DNA of 40,060 nucleotides from Escherichia phage IMM-002. The stretch lies in sequence record NC_048071.1; one strand, written 5' to 3'. The position numbers and the translations under genes were made by a program. The notes beneath the pieces were generated by a model that was given only the letters and a program-made list of their open reading frames with translations, had not been told where the DNA came from and did no database searches. Shown here in pieces: positions 1 through 40,060 of this stretch; position 1 is the stretch's first letter; each line of letters starts with the position of its first letter.

Positions 1-189
1 TCTCACAGTTCAAGAACCTCAAGTCTCCCCATAGGGTCACTCTCAGTCCGACTCAAGGCCCTACCCATAGACCTTCGGTCTAAACCTCAAGTCATTGACC
101 CGAAGTCGCCCCGAAGTCTGGACTGATAGTGCCTATATCTTGTGGTTGGGACGATTGGTCGGGACTATATGTAGTGCCTCTGAGTCTCT
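1..189. repeat. Left direct terminal repeat (DTR), identical to 39872..40060
   Basis: First 189 nt match the last 189 nt of the window base for base (aligned by eye); T7-like genomes carry 160-230 bp DTRs. Confidence 0.9.
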
Positions 190-210
190 ATCTGTATCGA
201 CCTAATGTCA

Positions 211-305
211 ATCACCTACAGTCAACCAGCCTACAGTCTCACTACCTACAGTCATCTACCATCGGTAAAGCCATCACCTACAGCCAATAGACCTACAGTC
301 ACCAG
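211..305. repeat. Array of about 5 short direct repeats (A)CCTACAG(T/C)C next to the left DTR
   Basis: Copies at about 215, 230, 244, 277 and 292; analogous in position to the short repeats flanking the T7 terminal repeat. Confidence 0.6.
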
Positions 306-519
306 ACACTATGTCGACCTTCAGTTTATCAGAGTCCTAAGGTCTTAGACTCATAGGTTATCACATCCGGTCCGTTTAGCAGTCAGAGACCATAGCTGAC
401 TAGGGTTATCGTTGTTGGTGTCTGCCAACCGGACTCTTATTATCCATAGTACAGACTTAAAGTCAATCATCTGTAGTCGTCCTTATATAGTCACTGTACT
501 ACTGTATAAATTACCAGTG

Positions 520-548
520 TTGACAGTGGGTCTAACTTTTGGTTTAAT
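520..548 (+). promoter_or_regulatory. Candidate host sigma70 early promoter (TTGACA-17 nt-TTTAAT)
   Basis: -35 TTGACA 520..525, 17-nt spacer, -10 TTTAAT 543..548; position matches the T7 A1-A3 region. Confidence 0.55.
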
Positions 549-656
549 AGCTTCCGTCAACACGACACGGCAAACACCGGATAGTAGAGACACCGGGTCA
601 CACGGTTAAGTAGACAGCCTGATAAGTCATACGAACAACAGGCAGTGACAAATAGC

Positions 657-686
657 TTGACAAGATGTAGCGACTTAACGTAGTAT
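657..686 (+). promoter_or_regulatory. Candidate host sigma70 early promoter (TTGACA-18 nt-TAGTAT)
   Basis: -35 TTGACA 657..662, -10 TAGTAT 681..686; resembles T7 A2/A3 (TTGACA...TAAGAT). Confidence 0.55.
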
Positions 687-886
687 GCACCACATCGACA
701 CGGCACCAACGGTCGATAAGCAGTACCAGAGGCACCGCCTCGCCGCTCTTTAACAATCTGGATAAACTCTTAATGTGCGCCGATAGTAAGCGATTAACTA
801 CAGGGCCTTGAGTCTACCGCGAGACGGGCTTGACTTGAGCGACTCAGGGTCCTGACTGATAGTCACTAACTTAAAGGATACACATC

Positions 887-1339
887 ATGATTTACACTAA
901 CGAACCAGCCAACGTCTTCTATGTGCTCGTGTCTGCCGCTCGTGCTAACCTGTCTGACACGGTGAACATGGGCCGTCAGTTAGGCCTTAAGGCGCTGCTG
1001 CAAGCCGGACCAGAATACTACGGCGTGCTCGAATGCACCGGGCTTACTGGGTGCTACCGCGAGGAAGGGCAGGAAGTCGCCACTGAAGAGAGGACCTACC
1101 GTGTGCGCTGCGAGTCAAAGGCTCAAGCTATCAACGTTGCACGACTGGCCTGCAATGACTTTGAGCAAGACTGCGTGATGGTCTACAAGTCTCAGACTCA
1201 CACGGCTGGACTGATGTTCTGCAAGGGCTGGGACGGCTACAAGACCACAAGTCTGAACGGGTCATTCCAGCAAGTCGATGAACCAAAGGGCGAATGCTTC
1301 ACGAAAGACGCTGAAGGTCGCTTCTGGGAGGTGGTGTAA
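887..1339 (+). CDS. 0.3: S-adenosylmethionine-degrading enzyme (T3 gp0.3 SAMase-like anti-restriction protein)
   Basis: 150 aa, first gene after the early promoters, AAAGGA RBS; N-terminus MIYTNEPANVFYVLVSA and motifs TGLTGCYRE, VRCESKAQAINVARLACN, VYKSQTHTAGL match my recollection of T3 SAMase; not acidic like T7 Ocr. Confidence 0.65.
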   Translation: MIYTNEPANVFYVLVSAARANLSDTVNMGRQLGLKALLQAGPEYYGVLECTGLTGCYREEGQEVATEERTYRVRCESKAQAINVARLACNDFEQDCVMVYKSQTHTAGLMFCKGWDGYKTTSLNGSFQQVDEPKGECFTKDAEGRFWEVV

Positions 1340-1659
1340 TGATTGCCTATAAAATCTTCCGAATCCGCAAGGATGGAACGCTGGGAGCACTATTCATCAA
1401 TCGTAAGGCGGTCATTGAGGTAGGAGAATGGTACGAGGCAGAGAGCCATCCGACCAAAGGGTTTGCCTATCGTCCGGGCTGGCACTGCACCTTTGAGCAG
1501 AACGCGCCACATCTTAAGCTGGACCTGAAGTCAGGTGAGCGTAGGGCTTGGTTTAAGGTAGAGGTTGAGAACATAACGACCTACGACAGGCCAGAATCTC
1601 AGGGTGGTGCATGGGTATTAGCACAGCGTCTGCGGGTATTAGCACAGGTCTCAGAGTGA
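1339..1659 (+). CDS. Hypothetical early protein, translationally coupled to 0.3 (TAATG overlap)
   Basis: 106-aa ORF, GGAGG RBS 7 nt upstream, no recognised motif. Confidence 0.55.
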   Translation: MIAYKIFRIRKDGTLGALFINRKAVIEVGEWYEAESHPTKGFAYRPGWHCTFEQNAPHLKLDLKSGERRAWFKVEVENITTYDRPESQGGAWVLAQRLRVLAQVSE

Positions 1660-1724
1660 TAAACTACAGGTCATCCACATGGGTGGCCTGACTGATTGTC
1701 ACTTAACCATAAGGAAACAACAAG

Positions 1725-2459
1725 ATGAACGCACACGATAAAGTAATCATGAATAACCTGATGTCTCAGCTTCACGCTATAATCTGTAAGGCCGGTTATA
1801 AGGTGGAGTCGTTGGGGTCGGGCATCGCTGCGCAGGACCGCTGGGGAGCCGTTGAGGTCCTAGCCCGTGAGCATGGCTACAAGCTGTTAGGTCTGGGGCA
1901 CTTCGCCGCTGCCTTTGAGCATGAGGACCTGCCGGGGTATGCCATCAAGGTAGGCTTTAAGAAGGACGACTCAGGCGCTGCGTATGCTGCCTTCTGCCGA
2001 GAGAATGAGGGCATGGCTGGACTACCAGTCATCCATCTGGTCAAGCGCTTCAGCAGGGCTTACATGGTCGCTATGGACAAGTACCGCTCGCTTGAGGACA
2101 TCGGTGGGAACTACTGCCGGGAGGGCAAGACCTACGAGCAGCGAGTCTTAAACGTGTCGTGGCGTGTAGTCAACGCGATAATAGACCAGTGTGAACAGCC
2201 ATCCGAAGCACTGAGCTGGTGGCTTGACCAAGACGCTCGCATAGAGTTTGCACACGTCGAGACTCAGTACATCAAAGACCTTGCGCAGACTGCTAAGAAG
2301 ATTAACAGCTTCTTCTACGGGCTGGCATCGTTCGACACTCATCGCGCTAACGTGATGGTTGACAATAACGGGCGCTTGATAATCACGGACCCGGTGTCTT
2401 GGACTGCAAGCGACCATCAAGATGAGCTGCAAGGCAGGCTGAACGCAATAGCTGAGTGA
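1725..2459 (+). CDS. 0.7: Ser/Thr protein kinase, T7 gp0.7-like, kinase domain only
   Basis: 244 aa; GHFAAAFEHEDLPGYAIKVGFKKDDSGAAYAAFCR and ITDPVS match the T7 gp0.7 kinase core; C-terminal shut-off domain (about 115 aa in T7) absent. Confidence 0.85.
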   Translation: MNAHDKVIMNNLMSQLHAIICKAGYKVESLGSGIAAQDRWGAVEVLAREHGYKLLGLGHFAAAFEHEDLPGYAIKVGFKKDDSGAAYAAFCRENEGMAGLPVIHLVKRFSRAYMVAMDKYRSLEDIGGNYCREGKTYEQRVLNVSWRVVNAIIDQCEQPSEALSWWLDQDARIEFAHVETQYIKDLAQTAKKINSFFYGLASFDTHRANVMVDNNGRLIITDPVSWTASDHQDELQGRLNAIAE

Positions 2460-2525
2460 TAGGCGAGAGACCGCTACATCTAGTGGTCTCAAAGATTATC
2501 TCTCACAACATATAGGCAGGTGTAC

Positions 2526-2720
2526 ATGGGCTGGATACTTCTGGTCATCGGCTACGGGTTAATACTCGCAGTCATCACGAAAGACATCATCAAGGCACGT
2601 AAAGTCTACCGCTTCCAGTATGTGTCTCTGGGTCGCTGGACTGTAAGACAACCAAACGGACGCTTTATGCGTAACCTCGCAAACGTCTGGGACATCGCAA
2701 CCTTAGGGAGCAAACTGTAA
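2526..2720 (+). CDS. Small membrane protein (one N-terminal TM helix), hypothetical
   Basis: ATG 2526 (track ORF opens at GTG 2520); hydrophobic GWILLVIGYGLILAVI then basic tail; TAATG coupling to next gene. Confidence 0.4.
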   Translation: MGWILLVIGYGLILAVITKDIIKARKVYRFQYVSLGRWTVRQPNGRFMRNLANVWDIATLGSKL

Positions 2721-3142
2721 TGTGTAAGACCTGCGCTAAGTGTGGCGAGACCAAGAGTCTTGACCAGTTCGGCAGCAATAAGCGCAACAAGGATGGTCTG
2801 GACTATCGCTGCAAGACTTGCAGAAAGCAGGACGCCCAAGACAGGAGGCAGAAGGCACGAGAGGCCGGGACCTACAAGACGTCAAAGGCTGAAGAGAACC
2901 GAAAGCTGCGCTACGGTCTGGACCTAGAGGAGTACGAGAGCCTCCTACAGCAGCAGGGTGGAGTCTGCGCAATCTGCAAGGGTCAGTGTCCTACCGGGTG
3001 GAGACTGGCGGTGGACCACTCACACGAGACCGGGAAGGTGCGCGGACTGCTCTGCCTACAATGTAATACAGCGCTGGGCCAGTTCAAAGACTCACCGGAA
3101 CTACTGGCAAACGCAATCAAATATCTTCAGGAGAATCAATAA
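2720..3142 (+). CDS. HNH / Endonuclease VII-family nuclease (putative free-standing homing-type endonuclease)
   Basis: 140 aa; N-terminal Cys4 zinc ribbon (CKTCAKCGETK...YRCKTCR) plus GGVCAICKG...LAVDHSHETGKVRGLLCLQCNTALGQF, the Endo VII/HNH signature. Confidence 0.7.
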   Translation: MCKTCAKCGETKSLDQFGSNKRNKDGLDYRCKTCRKQDAQDRRQKAREAGTYKTSKAEENRKLRYGLDLEEYESLLQQQGGVCAICKGQCPTGWRLAVDHSHETGKVRGLLCLQCNTALGQFKDSPELLANAIKYLQENQ

Positions 3143-3393
3143 TGTACACGCACAAGACCTCACGTCACACCGTTCGTCAACAGCAGGAGCGCGACCGGGT
3201 ACTGCAAGCAAGACTCCGGGCCGAGGGCAATAAGGCCGAGCTGATGTGCCTGGCCTACGGTGGACGACCACGCACTGGCGATGGTAAACTTCTGGTCTCA
3301 GGCTGGAGGGCGATAGACCAGCGGTCATACATCAAGCACACGACCAAAGGTGACTTCAGTCATCTCCACGCTAACCCACTGATATGCAAGTAG
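3142..3393 (+). CDS. Hypothetical basic protein, coupled to the HNH gene (TAATG)
   Basis: 83-aa ORF, AGGAG RBS, no recognised domain. Confidence 0.4.
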   Translation: MYTHKTSRHTVRQQQERDRVLQARLRAEGNKAELMCLAYGGRPRTGDGKLLVSGWRAIDQRSYIKHTTKGDFSHLHANPLICK

Positions 3394-3398
3394 TTTGG

Positions 3399-3421
3399 AC
3401 TAAACTATCACTAAAGGACTC
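3399..3421 (+). promoter_or_regulatory. Phage-type promoter variant (TAAACTATCACTAAAGGAC) upstream of the RNAP gene
   Basis: Matches the phage promoter core except A at -2; predicted +1 G at 3416. Confidence 0.5.
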
Positions 3422-3496
3422 AAGGTCGAAAGACTCTAAGTCAGGACTGAAGTGAAAGACTTTAGTGATAAGACAACAGTTATAAGGACTTTAAGT

Positions 3497-6178
3497 ATGA
3501 GCGTCATCTCAATTGACAAGCACGACTTCTCTGATGTGTCGAATGCAATCGAACCATTCAACGTGCTGGCTGACCACTACGGTCAGGACCTAGCAGTAAA
3601 ACAGCTTCAGCTTGAGCATGAGGCGTACACTGAAGGCGAGCGACGTTTCATCAAGAACCTTGAGCGCCAAGCTGAGCGCGGGGAGCTGGCAGACAATCAG
3701 GTCGCCAAGCCACTGATGCAAACTCTGGTCCCGACCATCGCCAAGGCTGTTCGTGAGTGGCACGAAGGCCCGGACGGTAAGTCCTCGACCTCTCGCCCAA
3801 GCGTAGCGTTTACCATGCTGAGCACTGACGAGAAGGCTGTCAAAGACCGCTCTCTGCGAATCTCTGCTGAGTCTGCTGCGGTCATCATACTGAAAGTCAT
3901 CCTCAGCAAGCTGGTCAAGCCTGAGGGAATCCCGATAACGCCGATGGCCTCCGCGATTGGTCGCACACTTGAAGATGAAATCCGCTTCGGTCGCATCCGT
4001 GAGCAGGAGCAGGAGCACTTCAAGAAGACCATAGCTGAGAATCTGAAGAAACGTGCAGGAGCAAGCTACAAGAAAGCCTACATGCAAGCGGTCGAAGCCT
4101 CCATGCTGGAGCAAGGGCAACTGGCTGACGCTTGGGGGACTTGGAGTCCGACCGAGGCGGTACACGTAGGCATCAAGATGCTGGAGCTGGTCATCCAGTC
4201 CTCGCAACTGGTCGAACTGAAGCGCTACGGTGCGGGTAACGCTGCGGCAGACGTCGAGATGGTCCACCTGTCAGACTTCTGGGTCAAGAAGATGTCGCAA
4301 CGTGGCTTCTCACTGGCTGGCATCGCTCCGGTCTACCAACCTTGCGTCGTTCCACCTAAGCCGTGGACCGGGGTCGTGGGTGGTGGGTACTGGGCTAAGG
4401 GCCGAAGACCTCTCCCGCTGATTCGCTTAGGGTCCAAGGCTGCGGTCCAGCGCTACGAAGACGTGTACATGCCTGAAGTCTACGAGGCAGTGAATATCAT
4501 CCAGCAGACACCTTGGAAGGTGAACAAGAAGGTGCTGGACGTGGTGAACATGGTCGAGAAGCTGAACAACACGCCTATCGCTGACATCCCTCAGATGGAA
4601 CCGATGAAGCCTGAGGACTATGCAGGTGAGACCGAGGAAGAACTCAAAGCGTGGAAGAAAGCCGCTGCTGGTATCTATCGACGCGAGAAGGCCCGACAGT
4701 CCCGCCGTTTGTCCCTGAGCTTCATCGTCGGACAGGCGAACAAGTTCTCTCAGTTCAAGGCCATCTGGTTCCCATACAACATGGACTGGCGCGGTCGAGT
4801 CTATGCGGTCCCGATGTTCAACCCTCAGGGTAACGACATGCAGAAGGGCCTGCTGACTCTGGCAGTAGGCAAGCCAATCGGTGCGGACGGCTTCAAGTGG
4901 CTGAAGGTCCACGGTGCAAACTGCGCTGGTGTCGATAAAGTCACCTTCGAGGAGCGCATCAAGTGGGTCGAAGACAACCACGACAACATCCTCGCGGCTG
5001 CTAAGAGTCCGATGGATAGCATTGACTGGTGGGGTCAGTTAGACTCTCCGTTCTGCTTCCTCGCGTTCTGCTTCGAGTATGCTGGAGTCATGCACCACGG
5101 GCTGAGCTACTCCTGCTCACTGCCTATCGCGTTCGATGGGTCCTGCTCTGGGATTCAGCACTTCAGCGCGATGCTTCGTGACCACGTTGGTGGACATGCG
5201 GTCAACCTGACGCCAAGCGGGAAGGTCCAAGACATCTACCGCATTGTGTCAGACCGGGTGGAAGAACAGCTTAAGGAGCTGCTGGTCAACGGAAGTGACA
5301 ACGAGGTGAAGACCTTCGAGGACAAGAAGACAGGCGAGATTACTGAACGTCTGGTCCTTGGAACTCGCGAGCTGGCCCGTCAGTGGCTGACCTACGGGAT
5401 GTCACGCTCGGTCACTAAACGCTCGGTCATGACTCTGGCCTATGGGTCGAAGGAATACGGGTTCGCGGACCAAGTGTTTGAGGACACCGTGATGCCAGCG
5501 ATTGACAGCGGCAAGGGCGCGATGTTCACGGACCCAAGCCAAGCGTCACGCTTCATGGCTAAGATGATTTGGGATGCGGTAAGCGTGACCGTAGTTGCTG
5601 CGGTAGACGCGATGAAGTGGCTGCAAGGCGCTGCTAAACTGCTGGCTGCTGAGGTCAAGGACAAGAAGACAAAAGAGGTCCTTAAGCCTTGCCTCCCGGT
5701 TCACTGGGTAACGCCTGATGGCTTCCCGGTCTGGCAGGAATACCGAAAGAAGGACACCACCCGTCTGAACCTCCTGTTCCTTGGGTCGTTCAACCTGCAA
5801 CCGACAGTCAACAAAGGGTCTAAGAAAGAGCTGGACAAGCACAAGCAGGAGTCTGGTATCAGCCCTAACTTTGTACACTCACAGGACGGCAGTCACCTGA
5901 GGAAGACTGTGGTCCACACCCACCGCAAGTATGGCGTGATGTCCTTCGCAGTGATTCACGATAGCTTCGGGACCATCCCGGCTGACGCTGAGTTCCTGTT
6001 CAAGGGTGTCCGTGAGACGATGGTTGAGACCTACCGCGACAACGATGTGCTGCAAGACTTCTACGAGCAGTTCGCAGACCAGCTTCATGAGAGCCAGCGC
6101 GACAAGTTGCCCGAGCTGCCGAAGCGCGGTAAACTGAACATCGAAGACATTCTGTTATCTGACTTTGCATTCGCCTAA
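3497..6178 (+). CDS. 1: Single-subunit DNA-directed RNA polymerase (T7 gene 1 type)
   Basis: 893 aa from ATG 3497 (AAGGA RBS; track ORF opens at 3452); collinear with T7 RNAP incl. PWTGxxGGGYWA, AIWFPYNMDWRGRVYA, FCFLAFCFEYAGV, SGIQHFSAMLRD, HDSFGT and C-terminal SDFAFA. Confidence 0.97.
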   Translation: MSVISIDKHDFSDVSNAIEPFNVLADHYGQDLAVKQLQLEHEAYTEGERRFIKNLERQAERGELADNQVAKPLMQTLVPTIAKAVREWHEGPDGKSSTSRPSVAFTMLSTDEKAVKDRSLRISAESAAVIILKVILSKLVKPEGIPITPMASAIGRTLEDEIRFGRIREQEQEHFKKTIAENLKKRAGASYKKAYMQAVEASMLEQGQLADAWGTWSPTEAVHVGIKMLELVIQSSQLVELKRYGAGNAAADVEMVHLSDFWVKKMSQRGFSLAGIAPVYQPCVVPPKPWTGVVGGGYWAKGRRPLPLIRLGSKAAVQRYEDVYMPEVYEAVNIIQQTPWKVNKKVLDVVNMVEKLNNTPIADIPQMEPMKPEDYAGETEEELKAWKKAAAGIYRREKARQSRRLSLSFIVGQANKFSQFKAIWFPYNMDWRGRVYAVPMFNPQGNDMQKGLLTLAVGKPIGADGFKWLKVHGANCAGVDKVTFEERIKWVEDNHDNILAAAKSPMDSIDWWGQLDSPFCFLAFCFEYAGVMHHGLSYSCSLPIAFDGSCSGIQHFSAMLRDHVGGHAVNLTPSGKVQDIYRIVSDRVEEQLKELLVNGSDNEVKTFEDKKTGEITERLVLGTRELARQWLTYGMSRSVTKRSVMTLAYGSKEYGFADQVFEDTVMPAIDSGKGAMFTDPSQASRFMAKMIWDAVSVTVVAAVDAMKWLQGAAKLLAAEVKDKKTKEVLKPCLPVHWVTPDGFPVWQEYRKKDTTRLNLLFLGSFNLQPTVNKGSKKELDKHKQESGISPNFVHSQDGSHLRKTVVHTHRKYGVMSFAVIHDSFGTIPADAEFLFKGVRETMVETYRDNDVLQDFYEQFADQLHESQRDKLPELPKRGKLNIEDILLSDFAFA

Positions 6179-6190
6179 GGAGGCATCTAC

Positions 6191-6391
6191 ATGAAATTCG
6201 CACACAAGCAAACTGGCGTTAAAGGCGGTACTCAAATCGTGACCGTGACCGAGCACAATGGCAAAGGTCTGGTGAAGACCACGGTCATCCCAACCGAGAT
6301 GTCAAAGCAGCTTAACGTCCCATTCAAGTGGCTGGTGAAGCTGGTTCAAGAGCGACACGAGTCAGAACTCCGCGAGGTGGTAACGAAATGA
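6191..6391 (+). CDS. Hypothetical protein
   Basis: 66-aa ORF with strong TAAGGAGG RBS directly after RNAP stop. Confidence 0.55.
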   Translation: MKFAHKQTGVKGGTQIVTVTEHNGKGLVKTTVIPTEMSKQLNVPFKWLVKLVQERHESELREVVTK

Positions 6392-6465
6392 CAGACCTTA
6401 AGTGGCTGGCCCTATGGCTGGCCTTCTTAGCAGTGTACATCTTAATCCAACGCAGAAGAGGCTAA
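6388..6465 (+). CDS. 25-codon hydrophobic microprotein (MTDLKWLALWLAFLAVYILIQRRRG)
   Basis: ATGA overlap with upstream stop, GAGGTGG 7 nt upstream, one TM-like helix plus RRR anchor; below ORF-track size cut-off. Confidence 0.35.
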   Translation: MTDLKWLALWLAFLAVYILIQRRRG

Positions 6466-6471
6466 ACACCA

Positions 6472-6929
6472 TGTTCAACCGTAAACTGAAGGCACGTATC
6501 GCAGCACTTGAAGCAACCATACAGCGTCAGGACCACAACCTTGAGCTGGCTAATCGAGAGCAAGCACGGCTGAGGGCCAAACTACAAAAAGCTGAGACCA
6601 AGCGTGAAGTCGAGCCTTTACGTGTGAAGCGCATGGTCGGCCTGAAGTTCAAGGCGCTGTTCAACGGTATCTACCAGCCGACTGAGTTCAAGACCGGGCC
6701 GGGACCATGTGGAAAGACAGTAACGCACTTCACCACGAGCCGAGACGAGCGGACGCTGACCATCCACCAGCACCATACGGACGAGTCCAGCAAGAGCTTT
6801 GAGTATCGGCTGAGCGACATCGACGGTCGCATCCAGTATGACTACGAGCTGGTGCAGGTTTACGGTGAGGAGGCAGAGCGGGAACGTATGGTCCAAGCCC
6901 TCCGCAACAGACCGCGCTTCATAGCCTAA
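6472..6929 (+). CDS. Hypothetical protein with N-terminal coiled-coil
   Basis: ATG 6472 preferred (GTG 6402 in track overlaps the microprotein); KLKARIAALEATIQRQDHNLELANREQARLRAKLQKAE heptad-like region. Confidence 0.5.
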
Positions 6930-6947
6930 ACTATCACTATAGGATTA
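6925..6947 (+). promoter_or_regulatory. Phage RNAP promoter (phi1.1-equivalent)
   Basis: CTAAACTATCACTATAGGATT, +1 about 6942. Confidence 0.8.
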
Positions 6948-6992
6948 GACTCAAGGTCATGACTCAAAGTCGCGGCCTTCATGATTAACCCT
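6946..6992 (+). promoter_or_regulatory. Conserved stem-loop, candidate RNase III processing site (R1.1-equivalent)
   Basis: TAGACTCAAGGTCATGA...TCATGATTAA; lower stem GGUCAUGA/UCAUGAUU with G-U pairs, upper hairpin GAC-UCAAA-GUC. Confidence 0.5.
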
Positions 6993-7035
6993 GTAGCAAA
7001 GCTACTACCTAACTCATCCAATCAGGAGCTACACC

Positions 7036-9560: not shown

Positions 9561-9711
9561 GAAGAAGTATATCGTGGAACTTGAAGGGCGCGTTCAGTCC
9601 TTTGACGTCCCGGTCTACGCTAAGTCTCTGGACGAGGCGACCCTGAAGGCTCAGGAATATGAAGATGCTGGTTTCGTGGTAGGCCGCATCCGACCTGAGC
9701 TGCACGACTAA
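9541..9711 (+). CDS. 2: Gp2-like inhibitor of host RNA polymerase
   Basis: 56 aa (below track cut-off); [32 protein letters not shown] matches T7 Gp2 [33 protein letters not shown]. Confidence 0.75.
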
Positions 9712-39871: not shown

Positions 39872-40060
39872 TCTCACAGTTCAAGAACCTCAAGTCTCCC
39901 CATAGGGTCACTCTCAGTCCGACTCAAGGCCCTACCCATAGACCTTCGGTCTAAACCTCAAGTCATTGACCCGAAGTCGCCCCGAAGTCTGGACTGATAG
40001 TGCCTATATCTTGTGGTTGGGACGATTGGTCGGGACTATATGTAGTGCCTCTGAGTCTCT
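39872..40060. repeat. Right direct terminal repeat (DTR)
   Basis: Identical to 1..189; window ends inside or at the end of the repeat. Confidence 0.9.

What the first reader, a model, noticed from the sequence alone, without database searches (positions are those of the whole stretch)
1725..2459. gp0.7 homologue is kinase-only, lacking the host shut-off domain
The ORF stops after 244 aa, right after the kinase core. T7 gp0.7 has about 115 more residues that mediate host transcription shut-off independently of kinase activity. A GC hairpin (GAGACC...GGTCTC) follows the stop.
Basis: partly seen in the sequence, partly recalled or inferred. Interest (0 to 1): 0.35.

Follow-up and report, generated by a model that had tools for sequence, protein, structure and literature searches.

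The report
Kinase-only T7 gp0.7 homologue, natural form
This phage gene encodes a working-looking protein kinase related to T7 gp0.7 that naturally lacks T7's extra host shut-off tail; the short form is shared by many related phages and already sits in the databases, so it is real but ordinary.

Summary
ORF 1725-2459 (+) encodes 244 aa and is 32-39% identical to the kinase halves of T7 and T3 gp0.7. In a 123-sequence alignment it ends at the column of T7 R242. That is the published boundary between the T7 kinase domain (1-242) and the shut-off/DNA-binding domain (243-359).

The missing domain is not hidden by a frameshift or a split gene. A shut-off-domain profile finds nothing in any frame of the whole 40-kb genome (best E=1.8; positive control 2e-22), and nothing in neighbouring ORFs or in 11 related loci.

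The short form is a stable lineage. About 40 protein clusters of 229-244 aa end at the same place, 45 GenBank phage genomes carry it, dN/dS is 0.08-0.16, and the catalytic residues are invariant. The AlphaFold model is confident and has a protein-kinase-like fold. Kinase-only relatives are common (64 of 150 family representatives).

The "GC hairpin" is the upper stem of a conserved two-stem structure (2453-2505). It is built like the annotated T3 RNase III processing sites and has no U-run, so it is not an intrinsic terminator.

Whether the lineage lost the domain or never had it is unresolved. Verdict: real, correctly interpreted, a member of a catalogued family, low novelty.

The parts
1725..2459 (+). 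Gene for a 244-aa stand-alone protein kinase of the T7 gp0.7 family (kinase domain only)
   Evidence: ORF. PHROG 15752 E=5.6e-108 full length. BLASTP to T7 gp0.7 E=2e-36. Relatives carry PF27024 Phage_T7_kinase. AF2 model pLDDT 90.4 with a kinase-like fold. dN/dS 0.08-0.16.
1711..1715 (+). Shine-Dalgarno-like AAGGA, 9 nt upstream of the ATG
   Evidence: Read directly from the sequence.
1890..1904 (+). Codons for the glycine-rich loop G56-L-G58-H-F60
   Evidence: G56, G58 and F60 are invariant in 58 family members. They lie in the strand pair E52-57/E61-66 of the model.
1947..1949 (+). Codon for K75 (AIKVGF), the presumed ATP-anchoring beta3 lysine
   Evidence: Invariant in 58 sequences. Lies in strand E69-77 of the model. 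The role is inferred from the canonical kinase motif.
2334..2351 (+). Codons for the catalytic loop D204-T-H206-R-A-N209
   Evidence: D204, H206 and N209 are invariant. The D-to-N spacing of 5 and the N-to-D222 spacing of 13 equal PKA D166/N171/D184 (PKA numbering from general knowledge).
2388..2390 (+). Codon for D222 (ITDP), presumed Mg-binding Asp equivalent to the DFG motif
   Evidence: I220, T221, D222 and P223 are invariant.
2409..2456 (+). Codons for the last helix (residues 229-244, ...DELQGRLNAIAE), which ends where the T7 kinase domain ends
   Evidence: Helix H229-242 in the model, pLDDT about 67-75. It aligns with T7 DPEELIKEVEEVAR(242).
2457..2462 (+). Tandem in-frame stops TGA TAG, embedded in the lower stem of the hairpin
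   Evidence: T7 and T3 gene 0.7 also end in TGATAG followed by a hairpin.
2453..2505 (+). Two-stem hairpin with an asymmetric internal loop; upper stem 2467-2490; probable RNase III processing site at the 3' end of the kinase mRNA
   Evidence: MFE -25.7 kcal/mol for 2445-2530, z=-2.3. Same architecture as the annotated T3 sites R0.3, R0.5, R1 and R1.1 and as the hairpin after T7 gene 0.7. Conserved in 11 phages with 98% of cells paired, against 35-52% for slid partners; pair 17-34 occurs as AU, GU and GC. No U-run and not called as a terminator. No Rfam match.
1655..1703 (+). Second RNase III-type hairpin just upstream of the kinase gene
   Evidence: Folds to -24.2 kcal/mol. The upper stem CAGGUCAUC...GGUGGCCUG is nearly the same as in T3 R1 and in the hairpin after T7 gene 0.7.
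9562..9696 (+). Context: homologue of T7 gp2, the host RNA polymerase inhibitor, so one route to host transcription shut-off is retained elsewhere in the genome
   Evidence: tblastn with T7 gp2: 48% identity over 46 aa, E=2.7e-9.

Best explanation
ORF 1725-2459 is an intact early gene of a T7-like phage. The phage groups with the Kayfunavirus relatives, and the window is its complete genome with 189-bp terminal repeats. [quoted passage not shown] The protein ends at the last helix of the kinase fold, where T7 and T3 continue into the basic, DNA-binding shut-off domain. That domain is absent from the whole genome.

The inferred mechanism has four steps. (1) Host RNA polymerase transcribes the gene early, as part of the leftward early region between the SAMase gene and the phage RNA polymerase gene. 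(2) RNase III trims the message at hairpins on both sides (1655-1703 and 2453-2505). (3) The kinase phosphorylates host proteins, possibly including defence proteins, using K75, D204, N209 and D222. (4) Without the basic tail it should lack the kinase-independent, DNA-binding-mediated transcription shut-off, the associated toxicity, and the bias toward nucleic-acid-binding substrates reported for T7.

Shown here: homology, domain boundary, absence of the shut-off domain, fold, purifying selection, and conservation of the hairpin. Inferred: catalytic activity, substrates, RNase III cleavage, and the physiological consequence of lacking the tail.
For: - Homology and boundary. The T7 domain limits (kinase 1-242, shut-off 243-359) and the properties of the shut-off domain come from bioRxiv 10.1101/2024.12.20.629319.
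- Absence of the shut-off domain: tblastn best E>1; profile HMM against the six-frame window best E=1.8, with a control of 2.4e-22; 11 related loci negative while the T7 and T3 loci score 2e-26 and 2.5e-44; hhalign of neighbouring ORFs <=0.8% against a 98.6% control.
- Stability: about 40 clusters of 229-244 aa, many from complete ~40-kb contigs; 45 phage GenBank records at >=60% identity, annotated as protein kinase where listed; dN/dS 0.08-0.16.
- Fold and motifs: AF2 pLDDT 90.4, pTM 0.87. Foldseek PDB hits to APH(2'')/APH(4), MELK, Stk1/PknB and CK1delta have probability 1.0. The top BFVD hit is the 236-aa IME278 kinase (TM 0.94-0.97); long T7-type kinases are covered over only about half their length. 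Catalytic residues are invariant.
- Charge: the protein is acidic (pI 5.85), against pI 11.3 for the T7 shut-off domain.
- Hairpins.
- A gp2 homologue is retained.
Against: - No enzymatic evidence exists for this protein or, in the literature I could search, for any member of its short clade.
- The best PDB fold matches are aminoglycoside phosphotransferases, and TM scores are only about 0.35. The fold search alone therefore cannot separate a protein kinase from a small-molecule kinase.
- The local Pfam and NCBIfam copies gave no significant hit. The PF27024 label comes from precomputed annotation of homologues.
- Covariation in the hairpin is too sparse to be statistically meaningful, and its folding z-score is modest (-2.3).
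- For JSS1_004, the shut-off domain was needed for full anti-DndFGH activity (PMC12345140). What a tail-less kinase achieves in vivo is therefore uncertain.
Confidence: 0.85

Rival explanations
1. A sequencing or assembly frameshift, or a split gene: the shut-off domain is encoded downstream in another frame or as a separate ORF.
For: T7 and T3 proteins are 115-125 aa longer. Three small ORFs lie between the kinase gene and the RNA polymerase gene, and one of them (83 aa, 3142-3393) is basic with pI 10.3.
Against: No frame of the window matches a shut-off profile (best E=1.8 against a control of 2e-22). hhalign of the 66-aa, EndoVII-like, 83-aa and 106-aa ORFs gives <=0.8% probability. The stop is doubled (TGATAG). 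The same end point recurs in about 40 independent clusters and in 11 sequenced loci.
Confidence: 0.02
2. A recently truncated, decaying remnant of a full-length gp0.7, that is, a pseudogene in the making.
For: Recent truncations do occur in this family. P0081 (254 aa) is 84% identical to the long P0068. Fourteen proteins that are 85-94% identical to long relatives carry partial tails of 30-80 aa.
Against: dN/dS is 0.08-0.16 across 7 relatives, with dS of 0.5-0.7. The clade spans 55-91% identity with an unchanged end point. All catalytic residues are invariant. The model is confident over the whole chain.
Confidence: 0.03
3. The protein is a small-molecule (aminoglycoside/choline-type) phosphotransferase rather than a protein kinase.
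For: The top Foldseek PDB hits are APH(2'')-Ia and APH(4)-Ia (E about 1e-5). The D-x-H-x-x-N catalytic loop also resembles APH enzymes (general knowledge).
Against: It shares 32-39% identity with T7 and T3 gp0.7, and T7 gp0.7 is an experimentally established protein kinase. Eukaryotic-type Ser/Thr kinases are also hit at probability 1.0 with lower rmsd, 5-8 A against 16-18 A. The gene sits where gene 0.7 sits in related phages.
Confidence: 0.05
4. The hairpin after the stop is a transcription terminator or a plain 3' mRNA-stabilising stem, not an RNase III site.
For: It is a GC-containing 10-bp stem directly after a stop codon. Its sequence differs from the AGGUC...GGCCU upper stems of the T3 and T7 sites.
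Against: It has no U-run, and the terminator scan did not call it. It has the lower stem, asymmetric internal loop and upper stem, about 50 nt in all, typical of the annotated T3 sites. It occupies the position that T3 R1 and the matching T7 hairpin occupy after gene 0.7. In L006 and L007 the whole module is kept even though the stop codon has moved.
Confidence: 0.2

Closest known systems
T7 gp0.7 (T7K; 359 aa) and T3 gp0.7 (369 aa)
   Same: The kinase domains are homologous: 32-39% identity, the same invariant G-x-G-x-F, K, D-x-H-x-x-N and D motifs, and the same terminal helix. All are early genes upstream of the phage RNA polymerase gene. All end in TGATAG followed by an RNase III-type hairpin.
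   Different: The window protein lacks the 117-120-aa basic shut-off/DNA-binding domain (T7 243-359). It is about 20 aa shorter before the beta3 lysine, has 24-27 extra residues in the C-lobe segment D118-T189, and has a 7-9-aa shorter loop before the last helix. Three unrelated ORFs separate it from the RNA polymerase gene.
T7 kinase-domain construct (residues 1-242); from memory, also the gp0.7 fragment of the T7 JS78 amber mutant
   Same: The window protein ends at the equivalent of T7 R242, so it is a natural counterpart of the laboratory kinase-only fragment. That fragment is soluble and purifiable, and the shut-off domain is reported as not essential for kinase activity (bioRxiv 10.1101/2024.12.20.629319).
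   Different: It is a natural, evolutionarily stable lineage rather than an engineered or nonsense fragment, and it is only about 32% identical. The JS78 detail is recalled from the older literature and was not checked here.
PHROG 15752 / Pfam PF27024 (Phage_T7_kinase) short kinases, for example those of Escherichia phage Pisces, Cronobacter phage GW1, Shigella phage SFP21A/B and Enterobacter phage IME278
   Same: Same family and same architecture, at 83-92% identity. Lengths are 244 aa for Pisces and 236 aa for IME278.
   Different: Nothing of substance; the window protein is another member. The family's PHROG label includes 'inhibitor of host transcription'. That wording is carried over from T7 gp0.7 and is not supported for a protein without the shut-off domain.
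Salmonella phage JSS1_004 (broad anti-defence kinase)
   Same: A T7 gp0.7 homologue whose kinase domain phosphorylates defence proteins (PMC12345140).
   Different: JSS1_004 has the C-terminal shut-off domain, and deleting it abolished protection against DndFGH in vivo. The window protein has no such domain.
T3 RNase III processing sites (R0.3, R0.5, R1, R1.1) and the equivalent T7 hairpin after gene 0.7
   Same: Intergenic hairpins of about 50 nt in the early region, with a lower stem, a small asymmetric internal loop, a 9-10-bp upper stem and a 4-nt loop. The hairpin at 1655-1703 also shares the upper-stem sequence.
   Different: The upper stem at 2467-2490 (GAGACCGCUA/UAGUGGUCUC) is unrelated in sequence to the AGGUC/GGCCU stems. 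Cleavage is untested.

Membership tests
T7 gp0.7-type phage protein kinase (Pfam PF27024 Phage_T7_kinase; PHROGs 2828/15752) | Significant sequence similarity to the gp0.7 kinase domain | tested here: met
   BLASTP to T7 E=2e-36. PHROG 15752 E=5.6e-108 and PHROG 2828 E=1.1e-53. All listed homologues carry PF27024. The local Pfam copy lacks this model.
T7 gp0.7-type phage protein kinase (Pfam PF27024 Phage_T7_kinase; PHROGs 2828/15752) | Protein-kinase-like bilobal fold | tested here: met
   AF2 pLDDT 90.4, pTM 0.87. Foldseek PDB hits to APH enzymes and eukaryotic-like Ser/Thr kinases at probability 1.0. BFVD phage kinases give TMq 0.73-0.94.
T7 gp0.7-type phage protein kinase (Pfam PF27024 Phage_T7_kinase; PHROGs 2828/15752) | Catalytic motifs: Gly-rich loop, beta3 Lys, catalytic Asp/Asn loop, Mg-binding Asp | tested here: met
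   G56/G58/F60, K75, D204/H206/N209 and D222 are invariant in 58 sequences including T7 and T3.
T7 gp0.7-type phage protein kinase (Pfam PF27024 Phage_T7_kinase; PHROGs 2828/15752) | Early-region position, same strand, between gene 0.3 and gene 1 (RNA polymerase) | tested here: met
   SAMase gene at 887-1339, kinase gene at 1725-2459, RNA polymerase gene at 3452-6178. Same order in Pisces and in L013-L016.
T7 gp0.7-type phage protein kinase (Pfam PF27024 Phage_T7_kinase; PHROGs 2828/15752) | Protein kinase activity on host proteins | not testable with these tools
   Requires biochemistry or phosphoproteomics.
Bifunctional gp0.7 (kinase plus host shut-off), as in T7, T3 and JSS1_004 | C-terminal basic shut-off/DNA-binding domain of about 117 aa | tested here: not met
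   The ORF ends at the T7 R242 column. No shut-off-like sequence in any frame of the genome or in neighbouring ORFs. The protein's pI is 5.85.
Bifunctional gp0.7 (kinase plus host shut-off), as in T7, T3 and JSS1_004 | Kinase-independent inhibition of host transcription, and toxicity | not testable with these tools
   Predicted absent because the domain is absent. Requires expression and shut-off assays.
T7-group RNase III processing site | Intergenic early-region hairpin of about 50 nt with upper and lower stems separated by an internal loop | tested here: met
   Fold of 2445-2530 and side-by-side folds of the T3-annotated sites.
T7-group RNase III processing site | Structure conserved among related phages | tested here: inconclusive
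   98% of cells are paired in 11 phages, against 35-52% when partners are slid. However, no pair counts as changed on both sides, and the shuffle controls are not exceeded. The sequences are too similar.
T7-group RNase III processing site | Cleavage by host RNase III | not testable with these tools
   Needs an in vitro digestion or end mapping. There is no Rfam model for these sites.

The most novel reading that the evidence does not exclude
The kinase-only architecture may be an adaptive design rather than a neutral absence. By dispensing with the toxic DNA-binding shut-off tail, this lineage would avoid triggering defences that sense host transcription shut-off; T7 gp0.7 is reported to trigger ShosTA in this way (PMC11961720). 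The clade-specific 24-27-aa C-lobe insertion (residues about 127-175) could then supply a different means of choosing substrates. If so, comparing short and long kinases would give a natural experiment on how a hyper-promiscuous phage kinase is targeted.
Probability: 0.15. Interest if true: 0.45.

Novelty: new member of a known kind. Interest (0 to 1): 0.2.

Why it matters
Practically, it corrects annotation. Records of this clade inherit T7's label 'inhibitor of host transcription', but the domain responsible for kinase-independent shut-off is not there.

Biologically, recent work assigns the T7 shut-off domain a role in steering a hyper-promiscuous kinase toward nucleic-acid-binding proteins. 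In JSS1 that domain was also needed to defeat DndFGH. Natural tail-less kinases are widespread: 45 GenBank phages in this clade alone, and about 43% of family representatives. They offer ready-made comparison material for asking what the kinase does alone. The gene itself, however, is a routine member of a catalogued family.

Tried and rejected
- **Frameshift or split gene:** rejected by tblastn, a six-frame profile HMM search and hhalign.
- **Pseudogene:** rejected by dN/dS and by the invariance of catalytic motifs.
- **Intrinsic terminator for the hairpin:** rejected because there is no U-run and no terminator call.
- **Rfam:** nothing in 1-7000 at E<=1.
- **Local Pfam and NCBIfam:** no significant family for the kinase. 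PF27024 appears only in precomputed annotations.
- **PDB sequence search:** no solved relative; best E=0.3, irrelevant.
- **Literature:** four searches for an explicit description of natural kinase-only gp0.7 homologues found none in the held library. K1F, the type Kayfunavirus, has no annotated gene 0.7 in its early region.
- **Loss versus never gained:** a midpoint-rooted NJ tree put the window clade as sister to the clade holding all shut-off-bearing kinases, with kinase-only outgroups. Bootstraps disagreed. The window clade fell inside the shut-off-bearing group in 18 of 40 midpoint-rooted replicates and in 48 of 60 outgroup-rooted replicates. I leave the polarity unresolved.
- **Weak hit not pursued:** a shut-off HMM hit in L008 at 4969-5517 (E=0.24) was judged to be noise.

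Full report
**What the window is.** The 40,060-bp window is a complete T7-like phage genome. The first 189 bp recur exactly at the right end. The sequence is identical in length and content to IMG/VR contig IMGVR_UViG_2974592685_000001. Its left 6.2 kb is 86-93% identical to Escherichia phage Pisces (classified in Kayfunavirus, Studiervirinae). It is similarly close to Shigella phages SFP21A/B, Cronobacter phage GW1, Enterobacter phage EP1 and others. The early region, all on the + strand, reads as follows:
- T3-type SAM lyase, 887-1339
- 106-aa ORF, 1339-1659
- the ORF in question, 1725-2459
- 66-aa membrane-like ORF, 2520-2720
- endonuclease VII-like ORF, 2720-3142
- 83-aa basic ORF, 3142-3393
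- phage RNA polymerase, 3452-6178

**The observation.** The ORF starts at ATG 1725, nine bases after an AAGGA, and encodes 244 aa. It ends in two consecutive stops, TGA TAG at 2457-2462. BLASTP to T7 gp0.7 (359 aa) gives E=2e-36 with 32% identity over window residues 7-227 and T7 residues 27-218. Identity to T3 gp0.7 (369 aa) is 39% in the multiple alignment. PHROG 15752, a 260-position family of short kinases, matches end to end (E=5.6e-108). The T7-type PHROG 2828 (366 positions) matches only its positions 40-225.

**Where the protein ends.**
- In a 123-sequence MAFFT alignment, the last residue (E244) falls in the column of T7 R242. T7 has 117 further residues and T3 has 120.
- A recent study of the T7 kinase defines the kinase domain as residues 1-242 and the shut-off domain as Q243-G359. 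[quoted passage not shown]
- The window protein is therefore a natural equivalent of the kinase-only fragment.
- Its terminal helix, DELQGRLNAIAE, aligns with T7 EELIKEVEEVAR and T3 DELIAEIEALRA.
- It also differs from T7 and T3 elsewhere. It has about 20 fewer residues before the beta3 lysine. It has 70 residues rather than 43-46 between D118 and T189. Its loop before the last helix is 7-9 residues shorter.
- It is mildly acidic (pI 5.85), whereas the T7 shut-off domain has pI 11.3.

- tblastn with the C-terminal 140 residues of T7 and T3 gp0.7 found nothing better than E=1.4 anywhere in the window. The kinase core scored 1.5e-36.
- I built a profile HMM from the tails of the 63 aligned proteins (T7 and T3 included) that carry more than 80 residues beyond the boundary. 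I searched every stop-to-stop segment of at least 15 aa in all six frames. The best hit was E=1.8 (5.5 bits, a basic stretch of the EndoVII-like ORF). A leave-T7-out version of the profile found the T7 tail at E=2.4e-22.
- The same search over 11 loci from relatives with short kinases was negative (best E=0.24). The T7 and T3 loci scored 2.4e-26 and 2.5e-44.
- hhalign of six ORFs flanking the kinase and polymerase genes (including the 106-, 66-, 140- and 83-aa ORFs) against the shut-off profile gave probabilities of 0.8% or less. The control gave 98.6%.

**Is it a stable gene?** Yes.
- A search of 5.8 billion clustered proteins returned about 40 clusters at 55-91% identity. Apart from a few fragments they are 217-244 aa long (most 229-244), and many come from complete ~40-kb contigs. 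More distant relatives (36-44%) are mostly 366-392 aa.
- The clade members that reach the C-terminus end in the same column, with ...LNAIAE or ...LNEVCE.
- Among 899 GenBank phage records with a gp0.7-like kinase, 45 carry this clade at 60% identity or more, annotated as protein kinase where listed.
- Pairwise dN/dS against seven relatives is 0.08-0.16, with dS of 0.5-0.7.
- G56, G58, F60, K75, D204, H206, N209 and D222 are invariant across 58 family members including T7 and T3. The D204-N209-D222 spacing (5 and 13) equals that of PKA D166-N171-D184 (PKA numbering from general knowledge).

**Fold.**
- AlphaFold2 on the 58-sequence alignment gave mean pLDDT 90.4 and pTM 0.87.
- Foldseek against the PDB returned aminoglycoside phosphotransferases and eukaryotic-like Ser/Thr kinases (MELK, Stk1/PknB, CK1delta, HPK1) at probability 1.0. 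TM scores were modest, about 0.35.
- Against predicted viral structures, the best match was the 236-aa kinase of Enterobacter phage IME278 (TM 0.94-0.97).
- Next came long T7-type kinases of 353-482 aa. These cover most of the query (TMq 0.73-0.82) but only about half of the target (TMt 0.39-0.52). This is the expected pattern if the query equals their kinase half.
- Several other short phage kinases of 199-263 aa also appear in that list.

**How unusual is the architecture?** Not very.
- An exhaustive HMMER scan of 1.84 billion cluster representatives found 360 relatives at E<=1e-3.
- Of the best 150, 64 have 20 or fewer residues after the kinase match, and 35 match the shut-off profile.
- A second, unrelated short lineage exists (P0048, P0059, P0066; 246-247 aa). 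It stops even earlier, right after ITDPVSFTCEEE. In its genome (L015) the kinase gene is followed directly by the RNA polymerase gene.
- Apparent recent truncations also occur. P0081 is 84% identical to a long protein, and fourteen proteins carry partial tails.
- K1F, the type Kayfunavirus, has no annotated gene 0.7 in its early region.

**Loss or never gained?** I could not settle this.
- A midpoint-rooted NJ tree of 166 kinase domains placed the window clade as sister to the clade containing all 46 shut-off-bearing sequences. The deeper branches were kinase-only.
- Bootstraps disagreed. The window clade fell inside the shut-off-bearing group in 18 of 40 midpoint-rooted replicates and in 48 of 60 outgroup-rooted replicates. 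Its six core members were monophyletic in 60 of 60.

**The hairpin.**
- The stated GAGACC...GGTCTC stem is at 2467-2490: 10 bp with one G.U pair and a CAUC loop.
- It is the upper stem of a larger structure, 2453-2505. The lower stem is UGAG/CUCA plus GAUAG/UUAUC, and the internal loop is asymmetric (GCGA/AAAGA). For the 86-nt stretch 2445-2530, MFE is -25.7 kcal/mol with z=-2.3.
- No U-run follows, and the terminator scan did not call it. No Rfam family matches.
- Folded side by side, it has the same architecture as the annotated T3 sites R0.3, R0.5, R1 and R1.1 and as the hairpin that follows T7 gene 0.7.
- T7, T3 and the window all end gene 0.7 with TGATAG running into such a hairpin.
- The element is conserved without gaps in 11 phages, including ones whose kinases are only 56-63% identical. 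98% of cells pair, against 35-52% when partners are slid. One pair occurs as A-U, G.U and G-C. The variation is too sparse for a statistical claim.
- In L006 and L007 the stop codon is TAA and the whole GAGTGATAG... module sits 3-18 nt further downstream. It is therefore kept for its own sake.
- A second hairpin at 1655-1703, just upstream of the kinase gene, has nearly the same upper stem (CAGGUCAUC...GGUGGCCUG) as T3 R1 and the T7 hairpin.
- The likely reading is that the kinase message is excised by RNase III on both sides, as in T7. This is inferred, not shown.

**Mechanism and consequence.** These points are inferred. The protein should act as an early, promiscuous protein kinase on host targets. 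Lacking the basic tail, it should not bind DNA, should lack kinase-independent shut-off and the associated toxicity, and should lack the tail-mediated preference for nucleic-acid-binding substrates. Inhibition of host RNA polymerase can still come from a gp2 homologue at 9562-9696 (E=2.7e-9). Two published results frame the trade-off. Deleting the shut-off domain of JSS1_004 abolished protection against DndFGH (PMC12345140). T7 gp0.7-mediated shut-off triggers the ShosTA abortive-infection system (PMC11961720). Whether the tail-less form is an adaptation to such pressures is speculation.

**Verdict.** The gene is one more member of a catalogued family of short gp0.7-type kinases. Interest is low. 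Its main value is as a caution about transferred annotation and as comparison material for current work on the T7 kinase.

Noticed in passing
window 1655-1703 (+): A hairpin just upstream of the kinase gene. Its upper stem (CAGGUCAUC...GGUGGCCUG) and overall shape closely match T3 R1 and the hairpin after T7 gene 0.7. It is probably a second RNase III processing site, so the kinase mRNA would be cut out on both sides.
   Followed up: partly
window 2506-3451; L003-L010 and L013-L016, downstream of the kinase stop: Directly after a conserved CACAACATATAG motif, the genes between the kinase and the RNA polymerase differ from phage to phage. The window has a 66-aa membrane-like ORF, an endonuclease VII-like ORF and an 83-aa basic ORF; relatives have other small ORFs. 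This looks like a mosaic hot spot bounded by the hairpin.
   Followed up: partly
window 2457-2462; L001 (T7) about 3098-3103; L002 (T3) about 2903-2908: T7, T3 and this phage all end gene 0.7 with the tandem stop TGATAG, which forms part of the base of the following hairpin. This holds even though the proteins end in quite different domains.
   Followed up: no
L006 about 4733-4809 and L007 about 2437-2502: In two relatives the kinase stop is TAA, and the GAGTGATAG... hairpin module sits 3-18 nt further downstream. In L006 part of the gene's 3' end (GCTGAG...) is repeated. This may be the footprint of a recombination event.
   Followed up: no
PHROG 15752 and RefSeq NC_048161 (Cronobacter phage GW1): The short-kinase family carries the label 'protein kinase; inhibitor of host transcription; positively regulates RNaseIII; negatively on RNaseE'. 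The label is copied from T7 gp0.7, but the domain responsible for kinase-independent shut-off is absent. This is likely over-transfer of annotation.
   Followed up: partly
L015 3001-3744 (P0066), with P0048 and P0059: A second, unrelated lineage of tail-less gp0.7 kinases (246-247 aa). It has a longer N-terminus, lacks the terminal helix, and is followed directly by the RNA polymerase gene. Apparent recent truncations also exist (P0081, and fourteen proteins with partial tails). Absence or truncation of the shut-off domain seems to recur.
   Followed up: partly
L011 (phage K1F, 1-6500): The type Kayfunavirus K1F has no annotated gene 0.7 between gene 0.3 and the RNA polymerase gene. Among phages related to Kayfunavirus the kinase is therefore present in some and absent in others.
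   Followed up: no
window 887-1339 versus L013, L014 and L015: This phage carries a T3-type SAM lyase at the gene 0.3 position (PF23780, E=6.9e-40). Other phages with short kinases carry Ocr (PF08684) there. The anti-restriction gene and the kinase gene assort independently.
   Followed up: no
window 1-189 and 39872-40060: An exact 189-bp direct terminal repeat. The window is a complete linear genome, identical to an IMG/VR contig.
   Followed up: yes
L008 4969-5517 (+): The weakest non-control hit of the shut-off-domain profile (E=0.24, 9.6 bits) lies in an ORF downstream of the kinase of one relative. It was judged to be noise from a basic stretch.
   Followed up: no
window 3142-3393 (+): An 83-aa ORF (PHROG 7066, unknown function) with pI 10.3 and a basic, helix-like N-terminus lies just before the RNA polymerase gene. 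It shows no similarity to the shut-off domain (hhalign 0.2%), but a functional analogue cannot be excluded.
   Followed up: partly
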